This document shows, piece after piece, positions 609 to 13,891 of a DNA stretch of 29,186 nt; positions within the stretch are counted from its first letter, which is position 1; the number at the start of each line of letters is the position of its first letter. Under the pieces are notes generated by a model, which had not been told where the DNA came from, did not search any database, and saw only the letters and a program-made list of their open reading frames with translations. Both the position numbers and the translations under genes were made by a program. Source of the stretch: Fimbriimonadales bacterium (GTDB lineage: Bacteria; Armatimonadota; Fimbriimonadia; Fimbriimonadales; GBS-DC); the NCBI GenBank assembly GCA_046718995.1, contig JBDNDR010000001.1:1-29186 (forward strand). Direction: 5' to 3'.

Positions 609-2252
609 TTAGGGAGCCGTGCCCGTGCCTAAGCCCTCATCCTCGTCCAATACAGTCGCCGTGACGAAGATGAGCAGTTCGTTCTCCACAACCGAGCGGT
701 CCTTGGTGCGGAAGAACTGACCAATCACAGGCAGGTCACCCAACAGGGGCACCTTCGAGACAAGGTTATTATCGCTGCGCGTGACCAAGCCACCGATGAC
801 GATGGTCTCACCGTTCTTAATGCGTCGCACAGTGAAGACGAACTGGGTGTCAAATCGGGGTAGGTCTCGGGTACCCACACGCACGCGCCCAACCGTAGAG
901 ACCTGCGGGAAGAGCGAGAGTGTGATGGTGCCGTCGGCGTTGATACGCGGTGTGACGGTCAACTGGGTCGGCACAGGAATCGGAACAGGCTGGGTGAAGG
1001 TCGTGGGCTGACCGTTCGCGTTGAACACGACAAACTGCTGCTCGATATAGTCGGTCGTAGAGAACACGACGGTCGCCGGGCTGTTGTTCTGGGTGGTGAC
1101 AATCGGAGCGTTCACCACGCGCCCACGCCCTTGGCTCAAGAGCGTGCGCAGGTTCGCCACAAGGTTGCCCGTCGCATAGTTGACGAACACCGGCGCCGTG
1201 TTGTCAGCGAACCCAGAAGCACCCGTCTGTAGATTCACACGCGCCAGGTTCCAGTCAATACCGAACTTCTCGGCATCGTTTCGGCTCACCGTAACGAACT
1301 CAGCGCGAATGAGCACCTGCTTCGGAGCGACATCCAGGAAGCGCAGGATTCGGCGAATGTACTCAATCGCTTCGGGCGTGCCGCGCACAATCAGCGAGTT
1401 GTCAATATCGTTGGCTACAATCCCATCCAACCCATCGGGCTGGAAGATACCAACCGCTTGACCACCTTGACCAAGTCCGCCCCCGATGCCTCCACCAGGC
1501 TGACCACCACCGAAACCACCGCCGGGCTGACCACCACCGAAACCACCGCCGGGCTGACCGAAGCCACCGAGTCCGCCGCCCCCGCGTCCAGCGCGACCTC
1601 CAATCTGACCTTCACTACCATCTTGTGGAGCGGTATAGGGCGTCATATCGGGTGCAGGCGAGGGTGCGCTGTTGAAGGGCACATTACTCCCCGAACCAAG
1701 ATTGTACGGCACGCTCGGGGGCACGGGCACCTGCATACCGGGTGCGCTTTGATAGAGAGTGCGGTTCAGAAAGTCGCGCATCTCCGCGAACGGGTCATCC
1801 GACATCATCTCCGTCTTGATAATCCGCACGATGTCGGAGGGACGACTGTAGCGCAGAGGGATTCGCTCAGTGACCACCACAGGCTTCACCGGTTCGGGTG
1901 CAGGAGTCACCTGAGGCGCAGGGGCGGGTTCAGGCGTTGAGCGCGCTGGACCGATGACATAAACCCCGTTCGCTTCCTTTCGGAAAGTTGCCCCTGCCGA
2001 TTGACAGATGTAGCGAAGCACCTGCTCAAACGGTTTTTGCTCTACCTTGATAAAACTGATGCGCGCATAAGGCTGGTCAGTAGGCTCAAACACAACCTCG
2101 GCTTTGACCTGCTGAGCGATGGCTTTGACCGCCGTAACGAGGTCTGCATCCATCAGATAGATGGAAACAAGATAGTCGTCCGCATAAGCCGTGAGCGCTA
2201 CTACCAGGGTCGCCAAAGTGAGACCGAGTTTTCGTATCATTCCTTTTCTCAT
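609..2252 (-). CDS. pilQ: Outer-membrane secretin (PilQ/GspD family) with a Pro/Gly-rich insert in the N3 domain
   Basis: Signal peptide; N0/STN-like domain; split N3 (ERIPLRYSRPSDI...DNSLIVRGTPEAI); secretin C-domain (PKQVLIRAEFV, LTVTPRIN, GETIVIGGL, KVPLLGDLPVIGQFFR, ELLIFVT); RBS GGAGGAGG. Confidence 0.93.
   Translation of the reverse strand: MRKGMIRKLGLTLATLVVALTAYADDYLVSIYLMDADLVTAVKAIAQQVKAEVVFEPTDQPYARISFIKVEQKPFEQVLRYICQSAGATFRKEANGVYVIGPARSTPEPAPAPQVTPAPEPVKPVVVTERIPLRYSRPSDIVRIIKTEMMSDDPFAEMRDFLNRTLYQSAPGMQVPVPPSVPYNLGSGSNVPFNSAPSPAPDMTPYTAPQDGSEGQIGGRAGRGGGGLGGFGQPGGGFGGGQPGGGFGGGQPGGGIGGGLGQGGQAVGIFQPDGLDGIVANDIDNSLIVRGTPEAIEYIRRILRFLDVAPKQVLIRAEFVTVSRNDAEKFGIDWNLARVNLQTGASGFADNTAPVFVNYATGNLVANLRTLLSQGRGRVVNAPIVTTQNNSPATVVFSTTDYIEQQFVVFNANGQPTTFTQPVPIPVPTQLTVTPRINADGTITLSLFPQVSTVGRVRVGTRDLPRFDTQFVFTVRRIKNGETIVIGGLVTRSDNNLVSKVPLLGDLPVIGQFFRTKDRSVVENELLIFVTATVLDEDEGLGTGTAP
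1498..1559. repeat. Exact 27-bp tandem repeat (about 2.3 copies) encoding GQPGGGFGG in the secretin loop
   Basis: ggctgaccaccaccgaaaccaccgccg at 1498-1524 and 1525-1551, partial third copy from 1552. Confidence 0.9.
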
Positions 2253-2287
2253 TAGACGAGTTCCTCCTCCGTGATACCTGGATATGA

Positions 2288-2309
2288 GGGGCGGTTAGGT
2301 GACCGCCCC
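2288..2309. other. Intergenic 8-bp GC hairpin between the two secretin-family genes (possible mRNA stabiliser or partial terminator)
   Basis: GGGGCGGT-taggtg-ACCGCCCC, no clear U-tract. Confidence 0.45.
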
Positions 2310-2337
2310 GAATTGACAGGTGGTCGTGGAGCGTGGG

Positions 2338-3108
2338 TCAGCGTCCGAAGCCTCCACCGAAGCCGCCTCCGCCAAAACCGCCGCCACCGAAGCCGCCTCC
2401 GCCGAAGCCACCACCGCCTCGGAAGCCACCGCCACCGAAGCCGCCGAAGCCACCACCGCCGAGACCGCCGCCGCCAAAACCGCCGAAACCGCCAAAGCCA
2501 CCGCCGAGACCGCCGCCAAAGCCACCGAAACCACCGCCGAGACCACCAAAGCCACCGCCGAGACCGCCAAAGCCACCGAAGCCACCACCAAGACCGCCAA
2601 AGCCACCGAAGCCACCGCCACCACCGGAACTCAGTTCATACTGAGAGTAGCCCACGATGGAGGCACCCAGCAGATTGGCTATCAGATAGGGGTTCGCATA
2701 GCTGAGCTGGATTTTCTCAGGCAGATTGAGGCGAGGACCCTCCTCCTCAGGAGCGGTCGGTGTCGTGGTCTGCGGAATCTCCTCTGGACGACGGATTGTC
2801 ACATAGTAGACCCCGCTCTCGATGCGATAGGTCAAGTCCAGCTGGCGCAGGATGGCATCCAGCGCAACGGTAAACGGTACATCGGTCAGGGAGACCGTGA
2901 CATTCCCCTGCACATTGGGGTCAAGCGAGTAGTTTGCACCGACGCTGTCAAACAGTTGCTTCAACACAAAGCGAATATCCGCTTGGTCGTACTTGACCGT
3001 GACGCGTCGCTGGGACAAGTCCTGTCCCCCGCCCTGTGCGCTGGCGAGTGCGAGTGTTCCGCACATCAGCACTCCAGCAATCAACAGCCCTACCATTTTC
3101 TTCAACAT
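2338..3108 (-). CDS. Stand-alone secretin N-terminal (STN/N0) protein with a ~95-aa GGFG/GGLG tail and no secretin C-domain
   Basis: Likely ATG at 3108 with RBS GAGGA; signal peptide; VTVKYDQADIRFVLKQL...NVTVSLTDVPFTVALDAIL; EKIQLSYANP parallels the secretin's ERIPLRYSRP; ends in Gly/Phe repeats and TGA. Confidence 0.85.
   Translation of the reverse strand: MLKKMVGLLIAGVLMCGTLALASAQGGGQDLSQRRVTVKYDQADIRFVLKQLFDSVGANYSLDPNVQGNVTVSLTDVPFTVALDAILRQLDLTYRIESGVYYVTIRRPEEIPQTTTPTAPEEEGPRLNLPEKIQLSYANPYLIANLLGASIVGYSQYELSSGGGGGFGGFGGLGGGFGGFGGLGGGFGGLGGGFGGFGGGLGGGFGGFGGFGGGGLGGGGFGGFGGGGFRGGGGFGGGGFGGGGFGGGGFGGGFGR
2341..2627. repeat. Degenerate 9-12-bp tandem repeats (ccgaagccgcc-like) encoding GGF/GGGF/GGL
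   Basis: Visible periodic ccg/cca-aag/aaa-ccg units across about 290 bp. Confidence 0.9.
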
Positions 3109-3155
3109 AGTTGTTTCCTCCACACTGATTGACGATGCAACGCTTGAGGGGTTTC

Positions 3156-3929
3156 CTACAAGCCGGGCGCGGCACCTCTGCCACCGCGTCCACCACCAAC
3201 GCCTCCTGCTCCCGCCGCACCGGGCGCGCTCGGTGCGCCACCGGGGGCACCGGGAGCAAATCCACCAGCCCGTCCACCACCGCCTACCCCACCGGCACTG
3301 GGCGGCTCATAGCGCACGAAGACCTCGCGAGGGTTCCCACGACTGCGTCTCAGAATAGCCCCTTCAGGTGTAATCGCCGCCACACGGAACTCTCCAACGG
3401 TGTCGCCCGGTTGGATTATCTGGGGAATTTCGCCCTCCTGCTCCAGAATGGCTGACACGGTCGTCCCAATCACAATACCCGAGATGCGTCGCCGCGGTTG
3501 AGGTTCAAAAGGCTCTGGGAGCTCCACACGCGGGGGTCTCGGCGGGCTTGCTAACACGAAATAGCGGTTAGGATCGAACGCATCAGCCTGGAGCGCTTCG
3601 TTCTCCTCCGGCAGATAAGCAAACGGGTCTCTGCGCGGTTTGAATGGAACCTGTGCCGTTTGCTGTTGCGCAGGCGGGGGGGTTGCCGAGGACGGCTGTC
3701 CCATCATCGCCGGACCACCCATGGGGCTGGGACCGCCCATCGGAGGTCCACCCATCGGCGCAGGCGGCATACCTCCATCCCGATCCATATCCACATTAGA
3801 CATCGGGGGCGATGTCGTTGCCGTGTCCTGACCACCGCCTCCTCCCATAAACAGGAAGAAGACCGCCAGCACGACTATCACCAGCACAACGACTGCTACA
3901 GCGAGTATCGTCTGCTTCTGTTTATCCAT
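3156..3929 (-). CDS. pilP: PilP/GspC-like inner-membrane accessory protein
   Basis: N-terminal TM; Met/Pro/Gly linker; RISGIVIGTTVSAILE...IIQPGDTVGEFRVAAITPEGAIL resembles the PilP/GspC-HR beta domain; lies between pilO and the secretins. Confidence 0.65.
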   Translation of the reverse strand: MDKQKQTILAVAVVVLVIVVLAVFFLFMGGGGGQDTATTSPPMSNVDMDRDGGMPPAPMGGPPMGGPSPMGGPAMMGQPSSATPPPAQQQTAQVPFKPRRDPFAYLPEENEALQADAFDPNRYFVLASPPRPPRVELPEPFEPQPRRRISGIVIGTTVSAILEQEGEIPQIIQPGDTVGEFRVAAITPEGAILRRSRGNPREVFVRYEPPSAGGVGGGGRAGGFAPGAPGGAPSAPGAAGAGGVGGGRGGRGAAPGL

Positions 3930-3975
3930 CGTTGTTCACTTCCCTTATTCTCGGCACAGGCAGTGATTCCTGCAA

Positions 3976-4719
3976 TTAAATCCCCGGTCCGCCTCTGGGT
4001 GCGCCACCAAATCCCATCGGCGCAGCGGGCATCGGTCCGCCGCCGAACCCACCAGGCGCTCCACCCGCTGCCTGGGGCGAAGAGGGCACTCGTGGGCCGG
4101 GCTGACCACCCGTAATGCGCGGGTAGACAAACACGACCATAGAATAGCTCCCAATCAGGTTCGGACTGGTTCCTTGAATCGATAGCCCATCCACCAACAC
4201 GACCAGATTGGGTATCTCGTTCCACCGACGCACATGGTTCAGCAAGCCTTCAAACGAGGAGGCGCGCACCTGCACCGTGCCTATCGGATAGACCAGCACG
4301 AGCTCAGGAATGGCGTTCGGGTCGCTCGGCGGTCCGGGTAGCGCCACGCTGTAGAGGCGCTCTACCCCTGTCTTGATGGGCCAAGCCTCCAACTTCTTAC
4401 CAATCTCGCGTACCATATCGGGGTACTGCATCCACGCCTTGAGCCGGTCGCTGAGGTCAATCGTGTTCACGGGCATCTTGGTGCGGTCGATCTGCGCCAG
4501 CGCCAGCTCCGCCTCTGCGACCTTCTGCTGTGCCATCTGCACCAGTTGGCGCGCTCGGGGAATGAGTGCCACCTTATTCTCCAGTTGGCTCACATTCTCC
4601 TCGTGATACGCGATGTTCTGGAGGGTGGGGCGAATACCCAGTAGGAAGATCGCCGCCGCAACGACAATCGTCGCCACTAATCCGATAGAGACCTTTGCAA
4701 ACATTGACAAGCTTTTCAT
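3976..4719 (-). CDS. pilO: PilO-like type IV pilus alignment protein
   Basis: N-terminal TM, coiled coil, ferredoxin-like C-domain, operon position. Confidence 0.7.
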   Translation of the reverse strand: MKSLSMFAKVSIGLVATIVVAAAIFLLGIRPTLQNIAYHEENVSQLENKVALIPRARQLVQMAQQKVAEAELALAQIDRTKMPVNTIDLSDRLKAWMQYPDMVREIGKKLEAWPIKTGVERLYSVALPGPPSDPNAIPELVLVYPIGTVQVRASSFEGLLNHVRRWNEIPNLVVLVDGLSIQGTSPNLIGSYSMVVFVYPRITGGQPGPRVPSSPQAAGGAPGGFGGGPMPAAPMGFGGAPRGGPGI

Positions 4720-4731
4720 CGCGCTCCTCCG

Positions 4732-5586
4732 TTAGATGCCCATACCACGACCGCCCATCACGGGTCCGCCACCGCCGCCACCAAAACCACCCAACGACGG
4801 CGCACCGAATCCACCCGCTCCAGCACCGCCCAAGTTCAGCCCAGGAATCGATGCGGGCGGGGATGGCGGACTCACTGGCTCACGCAAGGTGGCAACGACT
4901 TGGAACTGCATCAGCCCTGCAGGCGAACCTTGCGACTGACCCGAACCCCCTCCGGCAAACCCACCCAAACCGGGTGCCGCAGAGGCACCGCCGAAAGAAG
5001 ATAATCCTGCTGCGCTGGGTCCCGAAAGCGCTGCAGGAGGACCACCTCCGAAACCACCTAATCCCGGCAGACCAGCCATTTGGGCGCTACCGCCTCCCGT
5101 CGCATAGCCGGGCATCTGGGTGGTCAGGCTCACCGAACTGAAAAGTGGGCACTGGTACATCGTCTGCAGGTACAACCCAATCTCACGGATGCCTTTCGTA
5201 TAGCCCGAAATCTGCATCTGGTTGCCCTGAGCAATCTGAAGCTGCTCATAGCGCACGCGGGGCGAAGTGTATCGGCTCAGCTGACTGTAGATTTCGGGAT
5301 AACGCAGGTTGTGCTTTTGAACCATCTTTACCCATTCGGTCTTCGCCAAAGTGATTGCCGCAGACTGGATGAGACTGTTGGCTTGGTTGACCAAGCTATC
5401 CACCTGCTGGGCTTGAGCCTCCAACTCGCTCTTGCGTGCCTGGAGTTCACCCAGCCGGCTCTGGGCACTAATCATCCAAAACACCATTCCTGCGTTCACT
5501 ACCAGAAACAGCACCACCAGCAGAGCCAGAATCTGCTTGTTAACCTTACGCTGGCGTACATAATCGGGAACCAGATTCAGTTTCAT
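4732..5586 (-). CDS. pilN: PilN type IV pilus alignment protein
   Basis: N-terminal MKLNLVP matches the INLLP-type PilM-binding motif; TM; coiled coil; ISGY...IGLYLQTM PilN-like core. Confidence 0.82.
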   Translation of the reverse strand: MKLNLVPDYVRQRKVNKQILALLVVLFLVVNAGMVFWMISAQSRLGELQARKSELEAQAQQVDSLVNQANSLIQSAAITLAKTEWVKMVQKHNLRYPEIYSQLSRYTSPRVRYEQLQIAQGNQMQISGYTKGIREIGLYLQTMYQCPLFSSVSLTTQMPGYATGGGSAQMAGLPGLGGFGGGPPAALSGPSAAGLSSFGGASAAPGLGGFAGGGSGQSQGSPAGLMQFQVVATLREPVSPPSPPASIPGLNLGGAGAGGFGAPSLGGFGGGGGGPVMGGRGMGI

Positions 5587-5601
5587 CGCTCAATATCTCC
5601 C

Positions 5602-6969
5602 TCAGAAGCTGGCATGCAAGCCCATCCCAATCGCTACAGGGAACAGGTGAACATTCGCCGCAACCCACTCTGGACCATGGCGTTTCACACTGACCTGAAG
5701 ACCCTTGACTGGGTTCGCCACCATCGCTGGAACACCCAGCGAGTTCGCCATAAACTGGTCTAAACTGGGAATAATCGCTCCGCCCCCTGTCAACAGGATG
5801 AGCGAGACATCCGCATCGGTGTTTCGGCTACGGAAGTACTCAATAGAGCGTCGCACCTCGGCAACCAACTCTTCCAGAATCGGGTAGATGGCTAAAAACA
5901 CCTCCACTTTGCGCGGGTCGCCCACAGGTTGCGTGGCAGGAACCGCAGGCTCCGTCGCAGGGGTTGGCTCTGGCTCGCCCGGCGTTGCGAATGGCGAGGG
6001 TGGAACTTCTTCTTCCTGCGCACCAAAGCTCGTCGGTTCGGCGCTTGGAGTATAAAACGGTGAAGGCTCCTCGCCGGGCACGGAGAAGGGCGAGGGTGCC
6101 CCCGGCATATAGGGCGTGCCCGGTGCCTGCGGAGGCTCTGGGGCTGCAAAGCCCGGCGTATAGAAACCGCCCGTGGGTGCCCCCGGCGTGCTGAACGGGC
6201 TGGGAGTTGCAGTAGGAATCTGGTCCATCAACACCTCAGCCAGCTGAACCTTGAGCTGTTCCGCCTCCGCCTCCGAAACCATCAAGCGCTCGGCAACCGC
6301 GCGCGTGAGCATATCGCCTCCAGTTGGCAAGATTCGCGGGAAGCTGAGAATGCCGTTGTTGTAGATATCAATAGAAGTCGCACTGGCACCCAGATTGATG
6401 ACCGCTACTGCCTTATTCTGCTGGTCGGGCTGAGTGAGCAGGAGGCTTCGCGCCAGCGCCAGCGGTTCCACATCAATCGCATAAGGCTCCAAACCCACCT
6501 TGTCGGCTATATCCACCAGTCCGTCTACAGCGTCTTGCTGAGCGACGGCTAAAATCACTTCCATATTGGGGTCGGTGGGACTGGTGCCGGGGCGATGAAT
6601 GACCTCATAGGCGGACTGAACCCGCGTATCGGCGAACGGGATATTGCGCTGGATTTCCCAATCCATGTGTTGGCGCAGTTCCACCGCGTTCATTCGGGGC
6701 ACTTCCAAAATGCGTACCACCACCGCGTTCTGCCCCGCGAGCGAGAACGCCGCCTGTTTGGTGCTAATCCCCGTTTCAGCGAGCAGTCGCTTAACGGCGG
6801 CAGAAACCGCCTGCTTATCAATAATCCCAGCCGAGTCGACCGCACCTTCTGGCGTCGGGGCGATGCCCAGATTCTGCAAGACGGGTGGGCGCCCCGATCG
6901 CACCTCCGCGACCTTAATGAACCGTGTCCCTATATCAATGCCGACAACTACACCAGGTTGCTTCGCCAT
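5602..6969 (-). CDS. pilM: PilM actin-like type IV pilus assembly protein with a ~100-aa Pro-rich insert
   Basis: VVGIDIGTRFIKVAE, VVVRILEVP, IDVEPLALAR, VINLGASATSI, LPTGGDMLT, ILLTGGGA, FPVAIGMGL. Confidence 0.93.
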   Translation of the reverse strand: MAKQPGVVVGIDIGTRFIKVAEVRSGRPPVLQNLGIAPTPEGAVDSAGIIDKQAVSAAVKRLLAETGISTKQAAFSLAGQNAVVVRILEVPRMNAVELRQHMDWEIQRNIPFADTRVQSAYEVIHRPGTSPTDPNMEVILAVAQQDAVDGLVDIADKVGLEPYAIDVEPLALARSLLLTQPDQQNKAVAVINLGASATSIDIYNNGILSFPRILPTGGDMLTRAVAERLMVSEAEAEQLKVQLAEVLMDQIPTATPSPFSTPGAPTGGFYTPGFAAPEPPQAPGTPYMPGAPSPFSVPGEEPSPFYTPSAEPTSFGAQEEEVPPSPFATPGEPEPTPATEPAVPATQPVGDPRKVEVFLAIYPILEELVAEVRRSIEYFRSRNTDADVSLILLTGGGAIIPSLDQFMANSLGVPAMVANPVKGLQVSVKRHGPEWVAANVHLFPVAIGMGLHASF

Positions 6970-7022
6970 TCTATTCTCCCATCAGGGCAGTTCGGCAGAA
7001 CCGAGCCAACTCCTGCCACTTG

Positions 7023-7032
7023 ATTCTACCCC
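7023..7032 (-). promoter_or_regulatory. Putative -10 element (GGGG-TAGAAT) of the pilM operon
   Basis: Reverse complement of ATTCTACCCC, about 54 nt upstream of the pilM ATG. Confidence 0.55.
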
Positions 7033-7040
7033 ATAGACAA

Positions 7041-7093
7041 TTCGGCGACGATTCCTCGTCTCCTGCAGGTTTCTGACGGGAATCGCCGCCGAA
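7041..7093. repeat. Long imperfect inverted repeat (about 19-20-bp arms) between the monooxygenase gene and the pilM promoter
   Basis: ttcggcgacgattcctcgtc ... gacgggaatcgccgccgaa. Confidence 0.75.
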
Positions 7094-7110
7094 TGTATCG
7101 GGAAGCGAAG

Positions 7111-7482
7111 CTAGCGCGTGATAATCTCGTAGGTACGGAAGTCGGAGGTCATCGGTGGCTCCTCACCGCGCGCCTTTGCCTCACGGACATCCTCAAACCC
7201 ACGCTTGTGCCCCTCTAAGAACTCCGGCGATTTGAGCCACGCTTGGAAGTCTGCCTCGCTATCCCAGTGGCTCACCACCAGATAAGCGTCGCCCTCGCGC
7301 TGGGGGCGCAACACATACATGCCCCGAAAGCCGGGCAAACGGTCAATCGCCCGCGCACGCGTGCGGAACAGATATTCAAACCGCTCACGGTATTCGGGCT
7401 TACAAGTGATATAATTGATAGCCACGAACCCCTCGCTCTCGGCGGGTTCCTCCGTTATGACTGCATGCTCCATATCCACCAT
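7111..7482 (-). CDS. ABM-family monooxygenase, IsdG/HmoA-like putative heme-degrading enzyme
   Basis: FVAINY...LPGFRGMYVLR...LVVSHWDSEADFQAWLKSPEFLEGH; Asn, Trp and His (Trp+10) match the IsdG catalytic triad spacing; likely ATG 7482 with GGAG RBS. Confidence 0.8.
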   Translation of the reverse strand: MVDMEHAVITEEPAESEGFVAINYITCKPEYRERFEYLFRTRARAIDRLPGFRGMYVLRPQREGDAYLVVSHWDSEADFQAWLKSPEFLEGHKRGFEDVREAKARGEEPPMTSDFRTYEIITR

Positions 7483-7887
7483 CGTTGTCTCCATTTCTCT
7501 ATAGAGAATACCCTTAACCACGCTAAGAAATCAAGGGGGCTGGCTCAGCAGAATAGACATGGACAGGGATCCTAAAGAAGGGAAATACTTCCACCCACCC
7601 ACGCCCACTCTCCGCAAACAGAAAGGGGAGTCCGCACTCGGTTTCCCCTGCCGTTTGGTTAGGAGCAGACCTTGTGTTGCCTACATCACGGTTCTTAGTG
7701 CTTTGCGCAACACTTTCCCTGTCGTTTGGATTTGTGGGTAAAAATTCAGTCCTAAGATAGTGCAGAGCAACGGAATACCCCCCGCTCCCTGCCCACGCAA
7801 GGTCGAGGTAAAAAGCTCAAGAAAGGAGACAGGTTCGGAAATCTGCCCGAATTTGGGGAATTTGCTCCGAATTTGCCTTGCCTTCCT

Positions 7888-7916
7888 TTGACAAATGGTG
7901 CGACTCGTGCTATAAT
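7888..7916 (+). promoter_or_regulatory. Perfect sigma70 consensus promoter TTGACA-N17-TATAAT
   Basis: TTGACA 7888-7893, TATAAT 7911-7916; RBS GGAGGG 7941-7946, ATG 7951. Confidence 0.9.
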
Positions 7917-7950
7917 AGACATATACTCTACAGCGAGATTGGAGGGAACG

Positions 7951-10216
7951 ATGCGAAAAGAGATGCAGATACGGTTGTCGCAAACCTTTCTAACCTGCTT
8001 CAACTTAGCGGGGGGGGGGGGGTAGAAGGAAGCTCTTAATCCCAGCACTGCTACTGCCAGCCTTACTGTCAGCTCAATTAGAAACACCCGAAGACCCTCC
8101 TCAAAACACTGACCCCAACTCTGCAACAAACATAGTGACCGAGAAGGACTACGGGCGTATTGTGGATGGTTTTCCTCGAACCGACCTTACCGCGTGTGCA
8201 TTCTCGCGTTTTGTGCTTGGTGAGGCTGTTCGTCTGTACACAAACCGTTTTCCCCGCTTCAACGAAAGCCATCCCCTTCGCCCATCACAGCCGCTCACAC
8301 TACAGGATATTCGTAGCTCCTACCTATCAATTGCAGGAATGGGATTTGCTCAACCCCCGACTCGTTTTTACTTGGTATCACAAACACTTTTCGAGCTAGA
8401 GTATCGCAGTACCTTGCCTAATGTCCTACGTGAGATTTACTATCCCAATAATCCGAACCCGTATACTATGCAGCTTCCTTATCTGTCGTTTCTACAACAG
8501 ATTTCATGGGGGCGGTTGCTGCCCTATCCTGATGCTCAGGCAACCATCGACGTGCGCACGCGGATGTGTCACAGCGCTGTGAACGCCTTGATTACTCAAG
8601 ATTGCGCTGGTGTTACAGGCGCAGACAACTGCACGAATATAGTGGGGCATTTGCTCGTGAATCATCGTCCTGGTGACCGCTGTCATTCTGGCGGAGGCAA
8701 CGGTTGCCGCTGGTACGACCCTCCTTCACGCTTCGGGGATAGTTACCACCGATCGTGGACGACAGGCACGCTGACCCTGACCTTCAACTGGAGCGATACT
8801 CCTGCCACAAGCAGGATTCAGACGCCCCGTAGCAGTGCGATAGTAGAAGGCAACCAAATAAAATTGATTCCTGATAATAGTAATAATTTGTGGCTTGGAG
8901 CTGGTAGCGAGACCTATCAGGGACTGATTCTGATGCGGAAGCGCACCTTCTTAGACGGCATGAAAAGCCTTGACCCGTTAGGTTTTCCAGAGATAGGCGA
9001 GAACGAGCTGGTTTTTGAGGAAAGCAATAACAGGGTCTCGCTACGCACAGCATGCAGTGCTTGGTTCTTAGCCACGCCCCCAGAGTCATTTTTGCTAAGA
9101 ATTCCTATACCAGGCGGCGGAGAGAGTGTGCTTTCCGATTTGGTCGAATGGTATGCTTGGCGTATAAGATGGCTTAGTAGGATTCCTTTTTACTATCAGA
9201 ACGACTCTATTTTGGGTTATGGGTATGATCATCTTAGCTCATACAACCAAGAAGACCCTGACAACTATCGACCGAGGGGCAACATTTTTATCTCGCAACG
9301 GGCGACCTATTCGGCTGGCACGCTTCCTGATTATAACCCGAACCTCACAACCAACTGGCTGGGCTCTCAACAGATGGAGATGCGGTTTCGCCCGAATCCG
9401 AACTCCACTCAAGGCGAAACGGTGATAGGGCGAGCGCGTTTTGAAGTGTTCTTCCCTGCCACGGGCACACGTCATCCTGGCACTCTCTCGGATCCCTACA
9501 CGGGTCAGCGAGCTCCTAACTGGTTCTACTACTACTGGCGCGTTGTAGGAAGCCCTAACGATGTGCATTTTACCACTCATTCTCCTTATCCTGATAATGA
9601 CACAATTGGGGGATGGTATGACTCAGCCAACAGACAAATTTATATTCGTAATAAGGAAGGAAACTATGTTGAAGGGACGCTTCACTTGTTCCGAATAGGA
9701 ACAGCGCGATGTAATAATCAGCCGAGAGTGTTGATAGTGAGTGCGGATACTCTTCAAGTGCGAGGCATCCACGCATTCTTGAGAACGCTCTATCACGAGC
9801 GCGGGCATCAGTGGACATACCTCAACCATTTTCGGTCGCGCTCGGGCGCATTCTTCCCTATCGTAACCCAAAGTGGAGGATTTCGAGATCAAGATGGAGA
9901 TAGCCTCGACGACGAGTGGGAAGCAATGAACGGTCTTTGCCCGCACAGTAAAGATACGACAGGGCTTTTTGATGATCCCCCCTACGATGAGTTAGGCGGT
10001 GATCCGGAAGTAGTGGTAGAAATATATGCCTATCGCCACTTATTGCAAAACCAATCCCTCTGGCGGCACGACTGGTCGGACAAGGGACTGCAAAAGGGCA
10101 ACCCCCTTGAACGCTTCCCTTCCTTCCCCTGGACTTACACCAGTACACGGCGGAACAATTCTGCCTACAACGACCTACTAACTGATATGCCGTGCCCGTT
10201 CGGCAACTGTCCGTAG
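7951..10216 (+). CDS. Large secreted HExxH metallopeptidase-like protein, frame broken at the G13 tract (phase-OFF allele or homopolymer error)
   Basis: ATG 7951 reads MRKEMQIRLSQTFLTCFNLAGGGG-TAG. The frame starting at 8024 reads RRKLLIPALLLPALLSAQLETPEDPP and continues without a stop into ORF 8135-10216. The C-terminus has LYHERGHQW, DQDGDSLDDEWE and GGDPEVVVE. Confidence 0.8.
8010..8022 (+). repeat. G13 homopolymer inside the 5' coding region of the large secreted-protein gene
   Basis: caacttagc-G13-tagaagg; by far the longest homopolymer seen in the window. Confidence 0.95.
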
Positions 10217-10240: not shown

Positions 10241-11422
10241 ATGCAGATGCAGACCATCCAAAGACTGAAACTCACGCTCAGCAGTATCACCCTGCTGAGC
10301 AGTTGGCTCTTGTTGAACGCTCAGCCTGAGAGCACCCTGCCCACACCCCCACAACCCCAATCCCTGCCCTACCCTTCCCAAGCCCTGCTGTTTGCCCAAC
10401 AGGTGGAACAGTACGACCCTAACGATGTGTATGACCGATACAAACTCTATGTTGTCCTGCGTAGTCAGGATGTGCCGCTGGAACAACGCAAGACGCTGGC
10501 GTTGCGTATCCTGACAGGCAACTATCCCAGCCGACCTGACTTTACTGGGTACAGTGAGGGCATATACGGCTTGTGGGTGGGTGCGTTGGTGGCGTTGTCG
10601 CACATCCATATGGACGACCCGTCGCTCATTCCGTTTTTGGAGGAGTACTTGCCCAAGTGGGAGCAGGCGGTCTCTGCCAGCGATCCCGACCAGTTGCCGT
10701 CTGAGATTCGGCGTTTGGCGAGGCGCACTTCGCCTAATGTTCAGTTGGCGCGTGCGTTGTTGTATCGGTTGAAGGCGGTGGAGGCGGTGCCGCAGGTCAA
10801 GTCGGGTGCTGATTTGGAGAAGCGGTTGGAGGTGATGCTGAAGGAGGCAGGGTTGACCCGTCAGCAGATGTTCCAGTACTACGAGGAGTATTTGGAACGG
10901 TTGCTCAACAGGCGTTTCACGGCGCCGGATTCGCGCCCTGTTAGTTTAGCCTACTGGTTAGCGGAGGAGTATGGGCGGATGCTGTTTCATTACGCCAAGC
11001 GCGGGATAGATGTCAGCGGGATAGTGAAAGCGGACAGTACGGACAAGGTGATGACAAAGTGGTCTGAACAAGTTAGGTTCGCCAAGTTAGCCGTTCAACC
11101 AGAACAGTTGATACGGGAGCTGCTCAAGCAGAGAATCACGGACGAGAGGTACGGGCAGATACTGGTGGATGAAGGCGTTCGGGTGGTGCCGTTGATTATT
11201 CAGCAACTGGAAGCCCTCAAGCACGACCGCAGTCAGGTCTCGGACACGGGGATGGGGCTGGTGACGCTGTTGGAGGCGTTGGTGACGCTGGTCGGCAAGT
11301 CGGCTGTGCCGTTGTTGGAGCCGTTCACGCAGGATGAGCGGGAGTGGCTCTGCGCCTATGCCCAGATGGCTATCCAGAAGGCACAGGAGGGCAAGGTGTT
11401 TGGGTTCCATCCCAGCCTGTAG
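10241..11422 (+). CDS. Secreted alpha-helical (HEAT/PBS-like C-terminus) protein, partner of the upstream gene
   Basis: RBS AGGAGG; signal peptide ending LLNAQ; LLEALVTLVGKSAVPLLEPFTQDEREWLCAYAQMAI resembles a HEAT-like repeat; starts 24 nt after the upstream stop. Confidence 0.75.
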   Translation: MQMQTIQRLKLTLSSITLLSSWLLLNAQPESTLPTPPQPQSLPYPSQALLFAQQVEQYDPNDVYDRYKLYVVLRSQDVPLEQRKTLALRILTGNYPSRPDFTGYSEGIYGLWVGALVALSHIHMDDPSLIPFLEEYLPKWEQAVSASDPDQLPSEIRRLARRTSPNVQLARALLYRLKAVEAVPQVKSGADLEKRLEVMLKEAGLTRQQMFQYYEEYLERLLNRRFTAPDSRPVSLAYWLAEEYGRMLFHYAKRGIDVSGIVKADSTDKVMTKWSEQVRFAKLAVQPEQLIRELLKQRITDERYGQILVDEGVRVVPLIIQQLEALKHDRSQVSDTGMGLVTLLEALVTLVGKSAVPLLEPFTQDEREWLCAYAQMAIQKAQEGKVFGFHPSL

Positions 11423-13835: not shown

Positions 13836-13891
13836 TGGCGAGGCGTGAGACTGACACCCTCTGTCGAGGCAGAGCAGTTTGAAGGTGAGTT

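What the first reader, a model, noticed from the sequence alone, without database searches (positions are those of the whole stretch)
7888..8137. G13 tract in the signal-peptide coding region acts as an ON/OFF frame switch (candidate phase-variable contingency locus)
Seen: perfect TTGACA-N17-TATAAT promoter, GGAGGG RBS and ATG 7951. The frame reads MRKEMQIRLSQTFLTCFNLA, crosses 13 Gs (8010-8022) and hits TAG right after. The next frame is closed by TAG (8006-8008) just before the tract and has no ATG/GTG/TTG until 8135. From 8024 it reads RRKLLIPALLLPALLSAQ-LETPEDPP, a textbook Sec signal, and runs into the 693-aa ORF. G12 or G15 would give one ~754-aa secreted protein; G13 gives a 24-aa peptide. 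Known: slipped-strand mispairing at poly-G tracts switches surface genes in Neisseria, Campylobacter and Helicobacter. Inference: the same mechanism in an environmental Armatimonadota-like organism, which I do not know to be described.
Basis: partly seen in the sequence, partly recalled or inferred. Interest (0 to 1): 0.9.

Follow-up and report, generated by a model that had tools for sequence, protein, structure and literature searches.

The report
Poly-G on/off switch, secreted-protein gene
A run of 13 G's between the start codon and the export signal of a secreted-protein gene in an uncultured hot-spring bacterium (Armatimonadota, Fimbriimonadales) keeps the gene switched off, and the run's length differs between otherwise identical DNA from other samples, so it is a slippage on/off switch of the kind known from pathogens such as Neisseria, here found in a free-living thermophile.

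Summary
There is a perfect promoter, a Shine-Dalgarno site, ATG 7951, a 20-codon leader and G13 (8010-8022). A TAG follows directly. The 735-codon frame behind the tract opens with a signal peptide and has no start codon of its own.

- The genome avoids G/C runs of 8-11 nt (14 in 2.25 Mb, none of 10-11). It has five runs of 12-18 nt, all G on the sense strand within the first ~36 codons of a gene.
- An independent assembly of this locus has G10 instead of G13, with one other difference in 3.5 kb.
- A second tract of the same organism (ECF sigma gene) is G7 versus G12, with no other difference in 1.5 kb.
- Homologues in related genomes keep leader, pure G run and signal peptide, with G7-G13, some in frame and some not.
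- Nine metagenome assemblies of one homologue are identical over 1.5 kb but carry G8, G9, G10 or G11.

Still missing: raw reads, an ON allele of this very gene (G10 and G13 are both OFF), and any experiment.

The mechanism is classical (Neisseria pilC, opa; Bifidobacterium pilus G-tracts). This is a new member of a known kind in a phylum with no report in the literature searched. This scan has noted similar poly-G leaders in many other genomes.

The parts
7888..7916 (+). sigma-70-type promoter TTGACA-17-TATAAT with TG extension
   Evidence: 12 of 12 matches; 0.3 expected in shuffles; sequence
7942..7947 (+). Shine-Dalgarno GGAGGG, 3 nt before ATG 7951
   Evidence: sequence
7951..8025 (+). leader reading frame as it stands (OFF product, 24 aa: MRKEMQIRLSQTFLTCFNLAGGGG, then TAG 8023-8025)
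   Evidence: A paralogous leader MFRKVLGKRLKTLTTCFNSA-G12 is in frame on contig C2.
8006..8008 (+). TAG that closes the main frame just upstream of the tract, so the main ORF can only be entered from the leader frame
8010..8022 (+). G13 homopolymer, the proposed slippage tract (ON at 9/12/15; OFF at 10/13 and at 11/14)
   Evidence: The tract is G10 in the independent Logan contig.
8024..8074 (+). signal peptide core RRK-LLIPALLLPALL-SA, with the likely cleavage before Q 8075
   Evidence: The n-h-c pattern ending in A-Q is conserved in homologues. No signal-peptide predictor was available, so this is inference.
8075..10216 (+). mature part of the secreted protein (about 713 aa plus stop). It is beta-rich, with an invariant HExGH motif at 9794-9808 and a DxDxDxxxD loop.
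   Evidence: invariant H596 E597 G599 H600 D629 D631 D635; AF2 pLDDT 77.8. There was no Pfam, NCBIfam or PDB match.
10241..11422 (+). downstream partner gene (393 aa), 24 nt after the stop. A 385-aa gene follows the homologues as well.
   Evidence: gene tables

Best explanation
The G13 run is a hypermutable homopolymer that acts as a translational ON/OFF switch for a secreted protein of unknown family carrying an HExGH motif. Transcription starts from the strong promoter at 7888-7916. Ribosomes start at ATG 7951 and read a 20-codon basic leader into the G run. With 9, 12 or 15 G the run encodes 3-5 glycines and leads in frame into RRK-LLIPALLLPALL-SA|Q. This gives a 754-aa preprotein that is exported and loses leader, glycines and signal peptide on cleavage, so length changes of 3 nt do not alter the mature protein. 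With 10 or 13 G (both assemblies) translation stops at TAG 8023. With 11 or 14 G it stops at TAA 8037. The main frame has no start codon and no ribosome site of its own. The length changes arise by slipped-strand mispairing at replication. The population is therefore a mixture of expressing and silent cells, and this gene currently rests in OFF. The tract is one of at least five such switches in this organism. The others sit on an RHS toxin gene, two small secreted proteins next to ECF sigma genes, and one ECF sigma gene. The same design runs through the family of Fimbriimonadales to which the organism belongs. Shown: the anatomy, the excess of long tracts, length polymorphism between near-identical DNA, and in-frame and out-of-frame homologues. 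Inferred: export and the cleavage site, replication slippage as the cause, reversibility, and the benefit.
For: Anatomy.

Genome-wide: five G/C runs of 12-18 nt against none of 10-11 and 14 of 8-9. All five are G on the sense strand within the first ~20-36 codons of an ORF. No other simple repeats were found.

The paralogous leader TCFNSA-G12 is in frame in front of the signal peptide of an 1823-aa RHS protein. This shows that leader, glycines and signal peptide are read as one protein.

This locus in an independent assembly (Logan contig of a hot-spring run) has 1 mismatch and a single 3-nt gap over 3493 nt, G10 versus G13.

The second tract of the same organism (ECF sigma) has 0 mismatches and a single 5-nt gap over 1474 nt, G7 versus G12. 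G7 fuses the Shine-Dalgarno-led ATG to the sigma frame.

Homologues in four related genomes have G7, G10, G10, G11 and G13. Two sister loci are 95.7% identical over 1685 nt with 71 mismatches and one gap, which lies in the tract: G11 OFF versus G10 ON.

One homologue appears in nine metagenome assemblies from nine samples with 0 mismatches in the 1500 nt after the tract. The tract is G8 x2, G9 x3, G10 x1, G11 x3. G10 is in frame with the Shine-Dalgarno-led ATG, G9 only with an ATG lacking one, and G8/G11 with none.

Within 90%-identity protein clusters the N-termini differ by glycine number (3, 4, 5, 6) or begin inside the signal peptide.

GGG makes up only 26% of Gly codons, so pure G runs are not explained by codon usage.

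The 735-codon frame is intact and 45-60% identical to homologues, with invariant motifs. It is therefore not decaying.
Against: No raw reads were available. The only run holding the locus is kept as contigs, which hide minor variants. Heterogeneity within one population at this tract is therefore not shown.

Both known alleles of this gene (G10, G13) are in the same OFF frame. No ON allele has been seen.

The assemblies compared may come from related samples. Homopolymers of 10 or more G are error-prone on Illumina and for assemblers.

The same-genus genome searched has no copy of the gene.

MutS is present, so slippage is not boosted by loss of mismatch repair, unlike in Campylobacter or Helicobacter.

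No expression or switching data exist.
Confidence: 0.8

Rival explanations
1. The frameshift is fixed, and cells bypass it during expression. RNA polymerase slips on the long G run, or the ribosome shifts frame. A constant fraction of product is then full length whatever the DNA length. This would be programmed recoding rather than a DNA switch.
For: Both assemblies of this gene are in the same OFF frame, G10 and G13. Many homologues are also out of frame, yet their long frames stay intact. That long homopolymers can make RNA polymerase slip is general knowledge, not tested here.
Against: Programmed recoding sites keep one fixed out-of-frame arrangement. Here the length and frame differ between identical sequences: G8, G9, G10 and G11. 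In-frame alleles are also common. There is no stimulatory RNA structure or Rfam match. Slippage in RNA could still add leaky expression on top of the DNA switch.
Confidence: 0.08
2. Assembly or sequencing artefact. The true gene has an in-frame run (for example G12), and G13 is a homopolymer miscall.
For: Homopolymers of 10 or more G are difficult for sequencers and assemblers. Two assemblies disagree on the length. One of the genome's tracts lies 11 nt from a contig end. Related MAGs carry poly-G at contig ends that look like two-colour-chemistry artefacts.
Against: The second assembly gives G10, not an in-frame length. The tract is 8 kb inside a 29-kb contig at about 45x word depth. All five long tracts sit at the same kind of place, sense-strand G early in an ORF, which random error would not produce. 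The rest of each compared sequence has 0-1 differences and no other indels. A one-contig genome of the same family has the same kind of tracts.
Confidence: 0.05
3. A gene inactivated for good. The G run expanded or contracted once and the gene is now a young pseudogene with no adaptive switching.
For: Only OFF alleles are known for this gene. The closest genus-level relative lacks it. One homologue (G007:C19) has an additional in-frame TGA.
Against: A 735-codon open frame with invariant motifs is retained. The G10 and G13 alleles show that the tract is still moving. The design of leader, pure G run and signal peptide is conserved across genera and paralogues, with many ON alleles.
Confidence: 0.07

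Closest known systems
Neisseria gonorrhoeae / N. meningitidis pilC1 and pilC2 (poly-G tract, frameshift phase variation)
   Same: A G run of about 9-20 nt within the reading frame gives ON/OFF translation (PMC5953494). From my own knowledge of Jonsson et al. 1991 (EMBO J 10:477; the paper was not held), the pilC tract lies in the signal-peptide coding part. Mismatch repair is present in both organisms.
   Different: The proteins show no sequence relationship (no Pfam match). Here the tract lies between a 20-residue N-terminal extension and the n-region of the signal peptide. The host is a free-living hot-spring Armatimonadota, not a host-adapted pathogen. Switching has not been measured.
Neisseria opa genes (CTCTT/CTTCT pentamer repeats in the leader-peptide coding region)
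   Same: The repeat lies in the cleaved leader of a family of paralogous exported proteins, so in-frame length changes leave the mature protein unchanged and each paralogue switches on its own (repeat listed in PMC5953494; the rest is from my own knowledge). Here too one leader type (TCFN[LS]A-Gn) is shared by different genes.
   Different: The repeat here is a homopolymer, not a pentamer. The passengers here are unrelated proteins: an HExGH protein, an RHS toxin and others.
Bifidobacterium breve UCC2003 sortase-dependent pilus genes (intragenic G-tract, replication slippage)
   Same: An intragenic G-tract in a non-pathogen controls a surface or secreted structure by replication slippage, with a range of tract lengths in the population (PMC9187656).
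   Different: That case was proven by maximum-depth sequencing and phenotypes. The present case rests on comparing assemblies. The phylum, habitat and gene family all differ.
Haemophilus influenzae lic1 (CAAT repeats with start codons in different frames)
   Same: From my own knowledge, not checked here: several start codons in different frames upstream of the repeat give strong, weak or no expression. The homologue in L082-L090 shows the same logic: G10 is in frame with a Shine-Dalgarno-led ATG, G9 with an ATG lacking one, and G8/G11 with none. The ECF sigma gene on C356 is built likewise.
   Different: In the window's own gene only one frame has a start, because the other two frames are closed before the tract. 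It is therefore a plain two-state switch.
Homopolymeric tracts at 5' ends of genes as a general prokaryotic device (Orsi et al. 2010)
   Same: Tracts placed near the 5' end allow efficient, reversible gene inactivation. This was measured for inlA of Listeria (PMC2831843).
   Different: That survey found enrichment of short poly(A)/poly(T) tracts (up to 7 nt). Here the tracts are long poly(G) in a genome that otherwise avoids them.

Membership tests
Slipped-strand (homopolymeric-tract) contingency locus with translational ON/OFF control | Long uninterrupted homopolymer inside the 5' part of the reading frame | tested here: met
   G13 at codons 20-24 of the leader frame
Slipped-strand (homopolymeric-tract) contingency locus with translational ON/OFF control | A change of tract length by 1 or 2 nt switches between a full-length and a truncated product, and no alternative start rescues the gene | tested here: met
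   G12 gives 754 aa. G13 or G10 gives 24 or 23 aa. G11 or G14 stops at 8037-8039. The main frame is closed at 8006-8008 and has no start until GTG 8135.
Slipped-strand (homopolymeric-tract) contingency locus with translational ON/OFF control | Tract far longer than the genome's composition and run-length distribution predict | tested here: met
   Five runs of 12 or more against 0.002 expected from the empirical decay, and none of length 10-11
Slipped-strand (homopolymeric-tract) contingency locus with translational ON/OFF control | Tract length differs between otherwise (near-)identical sequences | tested here: met
   This locus: G13 versus G10 with 1 mismatch in 3.5 kb. ECF sigma locus of the same organism: G12 versus G7 with 0 mismatches. 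Homologue: G8-G11 in nine identical assemblies.
Slipped-strand (homopolymeric-tract) contingency locus with translational ON/OFF control | Mixture of lengths within one population, above sequencing error | not testable with these tools
   Only contigs of the one run that holds the locus could be laid; no raw reads were available
Slipped-strand (homopolymeric-tract) contingency locus with translational ON/OFF control | Reversible, high-frequency switching of expression measured in cells | not testable with these tools
   The organism is uncultured and known only as a metagenome-assembled genome
PilC protein family (as a homologue, not as a mechanism) | Sequence similarity to PilC / PilY1-type proteins | tested here: not met
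   No Pfam or NCBIfam family matched the protein or 13 homologues. No PDB match was found by sequence, profile or fold.
Programmed recoding site (transcriptional slippage or ribosomal frameshift) | The same out-of-frame arrangement conserved in all homologues | tested here: not met
   In-frame and out-of-frame alleles coexist, and lengths vary from 7 to 13
Zinc metallopeptidase (HExxH) for the regulated protein | HExxH motif conserved across the family | tested here: met
   H596, E597, G599 and H600 are invariant in 14 sequences
Zinc metallopeptidase (HExxH) for the regulated protein | Match to a known peptidase family or fold | tested here: not met
   No Pfam, NCBIfam or PDB hit. Foldseek TM-scores were at most 0.11.

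The most novel reading that the evidence does not exclude
The hot-spring Fimbriimonadales family may carry a lineage-wide set of poly-G switches built from a portable module: a strong promoter, a short basic leader and a pure G run, placed ahead of the signal peptide. This module has been attached to unrelated exported proteins (the HExGH protein family, an RHS toxin, dockerin proteins) and to ECF sigma factor genes. In some copies two start codons in different frames give three expression levels. This would be bet-hedging of the secreted and regulatory repertoire in a free-living thermophile, driven by competition or phage rather than by host immunity.
Probability: 0.45. Interest if true: 0.65.

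Novelty: new member of a known kind. Interest (0 to 1): 0.5.

Why it matters
Mutational on/off switches are textbook features of host-adapted pathogens and commensals. Here they are documented, with natural length variation, in an uncultured thermophilic Armatimonadota lineage. This suggests that stochastic switching of secreted proteins, toxins and even sigma factors is also used in microbial mats, where the pressure would be phage, neighbours or fluctuating substrates.

There is also a practical consequence. Gene callers cut these genes short: the public call starts at GTG 8135 and lacks the export signal. Exported proteins in such MAGs are therefore mis-annotated as cytoplasmic or as pseudogenes.

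Tried and rejected
- Read-level tabulation was not possible. The single run that holds the locus is stored as contigs only, and the one read-laying run gave an assembly-level answer, G10.
- An exact look-up of the 693-aa product failed because GTG is translated as V. I reached the same records through the homology search instead.
- Naming the regulated protein failed. Pfam, NCBIfam, PDB by sequence and by profile, the ESM Atlas and Foldseek on a good AF2 model all gave nothing usable.
- Rfam found no RNA family in 7000-8600.
- A twin-arginine (Tat) signal was considered because of RRKLL. I rejected it as a family feature because homologues have a single R or K there.
- Loss of mismatch repair as the cause of instability was rejected. 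MutS is present in this genome and in four relatives.
- An alternative start inside the main frame was considered (ATC 8039 after AAGGAAG). It is not canonical, would remove the charged n-region, and is not conserved, so I did not adopt it.
- The literature search for phase variation in Armatimonadota/Armatimonadetes found nothing relevant.
- The paper on pilC (PMC452669) is not held.

Full report
**1.

- The window has 13 G at 8010-8022.
- Upstream lie TTGACA-17-TATAAT at 7888-7916 (12 of 12 matches, TG before the -10; 0.3 such sites expected in shuffles), GGAGGG at 7942-7947 and ATG 7951.
- The ATG frame reads MRKEMQIRLSQTFLTCFNLAGGGG and ends at TAG 8023-8025.
- The next frame is closed by TAG 8006-8008 and then stays open for 735 codons. 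It begins RGGGGRRKLLIPALLLPALLSAQLETPEDPP.
- Its first canonical start is GTG 8135. That start has no ribosome site and would remove the signal peptide.
- G12 would give a 754-aa preprotein. G10 or G13 stop at TAG 8023. G11 or G14 stop at TAA 8037-8039.
- No Rfam family matches the region.

**2. The tract is not a chance run**

The window is the whole of contig C1 of a 2.25-Mb, 384-contig MAG with 58.5% GC. G/C run lengths fall steeply:

| Run length | Count |
|---|---|
| 6 | 798 |
| 7 | 116 |
| 8 | 13 |
| 9 | 1 |
| 10-11 | 0 |
| 12 or more | 5 (12, 12, 13, 13, 18) |

- The empirical decay predicts 0.002 runs of 12 or more.
- An i.i.d. model predicts 1.25, but it also predicts about 120 runs of length 8 where 13 are seen. 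The genome therefore avoids such runs, except at five places.
- All five are G on the sense strand within the first ~20-36 codons of an ORF.
- No other simple repeats exist in the genome.

**3. The other four tracts**

- **C2.** This contig carries a paralogous leader, MFRKVLGKRLKTLTTCFNSA-G12. It is in frame with SYFRLTSLVLCCLIPLLGVAQ and an 1823-aa RHS-repeat protein that has a C-terminal hydrolase-like domain. So leader, glycines and signal peptide are translated as one protein when the length fits.
- **C352 (G18, in frame) and C290 (G13, at a contig end).** These tracts lie just after the signal peptide of small Cys-rich proteins that follow ECF-type sigma genes.
- **C356 (G12).** This tract lies between a Shine-Dalgarno-led ATGATG and an ECF sigma gene.

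**4. Length variation in this organism**

- Only one public run, a hot-spring metagenome, holds the locus, and only as contigs.
- Its 9557-nt contig has about 45x word depth and spans the tract with three G fewer.
- Fetched as DNA, it differs from the window by one mismatch and one 3-nt gap in 3493 nt, G10 versus G13. Both lengths are OFF.
- For the sigma locus, a contig from another run is identical over 1474 nt except for the tract, G7 versus G12. G7 fuses the leader MMAEPTRRPECEPLNEWH to the sigma factor.

**5. Relatives**

- The relatives are Armatimonadota of the order Fimbriimonadales (records JP3_11, KatS3mg016, HRbin15).
- Runs of 10 or more G occur in 37 of 41 related genomes. Some lie at contig ends and may be artefacts.
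- Homologues of the protein in three genomes keep promoter, leader, a pure G run and the signal peptide, with these states:

| Locus | Tract | State |
|---|---|---|
| G007:C19 | G7 | ON |
| G018:C76 | G10 | ON |
| G022:C5 | G10 | ON |
| G018:C224 | G11 | OFF |

- The last two loci are 95.7% identical over 1685 nt, with 71 mismatches. Their only gap is in the tract.
- A one-contig genome of the same family (G011) has several such tracts:
  - G13 (OFF) in the leader of a homologue;
  - G10 (ON);
  - G11 (OFF) beside a G9 (ON) paralogue;
  - G11 inside an ECF sigma gene.
- The leader end N-[SL]-A followed by at least 7 G was found at 11 places. It occurs in 5 of 28 family genomes plus this one, and in 1 of 122 other genomes of the order. 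The reversed-pattern control hit once in each of five genomes.
- GGG is only 26% of Gly codons.

**6. Population data for a homologue**

- The 5.8-billion-protein search gave 25 homologues.
- Within 90%-identity clusters, N-termini differ in glycine number (3-6). Some start inside the signal peptide, which is how gene callers treat OFF alleles.
- Nine JGI assemblies from nine samples have no mismatch in the 1500 nt after the tract, but carry G8 (2), G9 (3), G10 (1) or G11 (3).
- G10 is in frame with the Shine-Dalgarno-led ATG. G9 is in frame only with an ATG that lacks one. G8 and G11 are in frame with none.

**7. Mechanism and rivals**

- The best reading is a slipped-strand ON/OFF switch, now OFF (confidence 0.8).
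- Programmed RNA or ribosome slippage is not favoured, because frame and length are not conserved. It could still add leakiness.
- A plain assembly error is unlikely. The second assembly is also out of frame, the tracts share one kind of position, and the compared sequences have no other indels.
- A dead gene is unlikely, because the frame is intact, its motifs are conserved and the tract is still changing.
- MutS is present.
- What is missing: read-level heterogeneity, an ON allele of this gene, and any experiment.

**8. The regulated protein**

- It has no Pfam, NCBIfam or PDB match.
- Fourteen homologues share an invariant HExGH motif and a D-x-D-x-D-x3-D loop.
- An AF2 model (pLDDT 77.8, pTM 0.76) is beta-rich with a helical C-terminal part. 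It has no meaningful PDB neighbour (TM at most 0.11).
- The public gene call starts at GTG 8135.
- The gene and the start of its partner are lower in GC, about 0.50 against 0.56-0.63 in the flanks.

**9. Known and new**

- Poly-G frameshift switches are classical. pilC carries G(9-20) and opa carries a pentamer repeat (PMC5953494).
- Other precedents are the B. breve pilus G-tracts (PMC9187656) and 5' homopolymers in general (PMC2831843).
- No paper in the library links Armatimonadota with phase variation.
- This scan has noted similar poly-G leaders in many other genomes, one of them a hot-spring bacterium.
- Verdict: a new member of a known kind, of moderate interest.

Noticed in passing
L004 (G000:C356) 5346-5357: A G12 tract lies between a Shine-Dalgarno-led ATGATG leader and an ECF-type sigma factor gene. 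A contig from another public run is identical over 1474 nt except that the tract is G7, which fuses leader and sigma factor. This is a possible phase-variable regulator. The MAG's own gene call starts at the ATG just after the tract.
   Followed up: partly
L001 (G000:C2) 1128-6599, minus strand; tract at 6529-6540: An 1823-aa RHS-repeat protein has dockerin-like repeats and a C-terminal hydrolase or lipase-like domain (weak Hydrolase_4 and Tle3 hits). It carries the same kind of leader and a G12 tract, in frame. The same promoter, 5' UTR and leader with G8 (OFF) precede a different protein in G007:C45 (L071/L079).
   Followed up: partly
L003 (G000:C352) 13867-13884 and L002 (G000:C290) 11-23: G18 and G13 tracts lie just after the signal peptide of small Cys-rich secreted proteins that follow ECF sigma genes. 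In C352 the sigma ORF's open tail runs through the same tract in another frame. C290 ends 10 nt after its tract, perhaps an assembly break caused by length heterogeneity.
   Followed up: no
L082-L090 (JGI metagenome contigs), about 130 nt downstream of the promoter: Two start codons lie in different frames upstream of the tract. G10 uses the Shine-Dalgarno-led ATG (786 aa), G9 uses an ATG without one (778 aa), and G8/G11 use none. This may be a three-level expression control.
   Followed up: partly
G007 (HRbin15): L076-L081; G000:C2 6647-6676: A 30-nt promoter, TTGACAAAGGnGCATyGAATGGGGTATAAT, recurs six times in one related genome. It stands in front of secreted-protein genes with and without the poly-G leader, and next to RHS C-terminal fragments.
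   Followed up: partly
window 8135-10216: Public gene calls and the ESM Atlas start this protein at GTG 8135, so the signal peptide is lost. OFF alleles of homologues are likewise called from TTG or GTG codons inside the signal peptide.
   Followed up: yes
window 7400-10100: GC is about 0.50 here against 0.56-0.63 in the flanks. The switched gene and the start of its partner look compositionally foreign. Homologues sit in other neighbourhoods, next to a FlgD_ig-like gene rather than pilM.
   Followed up: no
G039:C1:567437-567476; contig ends in G037 and G040: One related genome has a G run of about 40 nt. Several MAGs have poly-G within 100 nt of contig ends, which are probably sequencing-chemistry artefacts. 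Raw counts of poly-G in MAGs therefore need filtering.
   Followed up: no
L060 (G011:C1:2711000-2713000): A CRISPR array (repeat GTAGCATTCACCCCCAAGGGTGGGTGCTAATTGAAAC) has a spacer that contains a G9 run.
   Followed up: no
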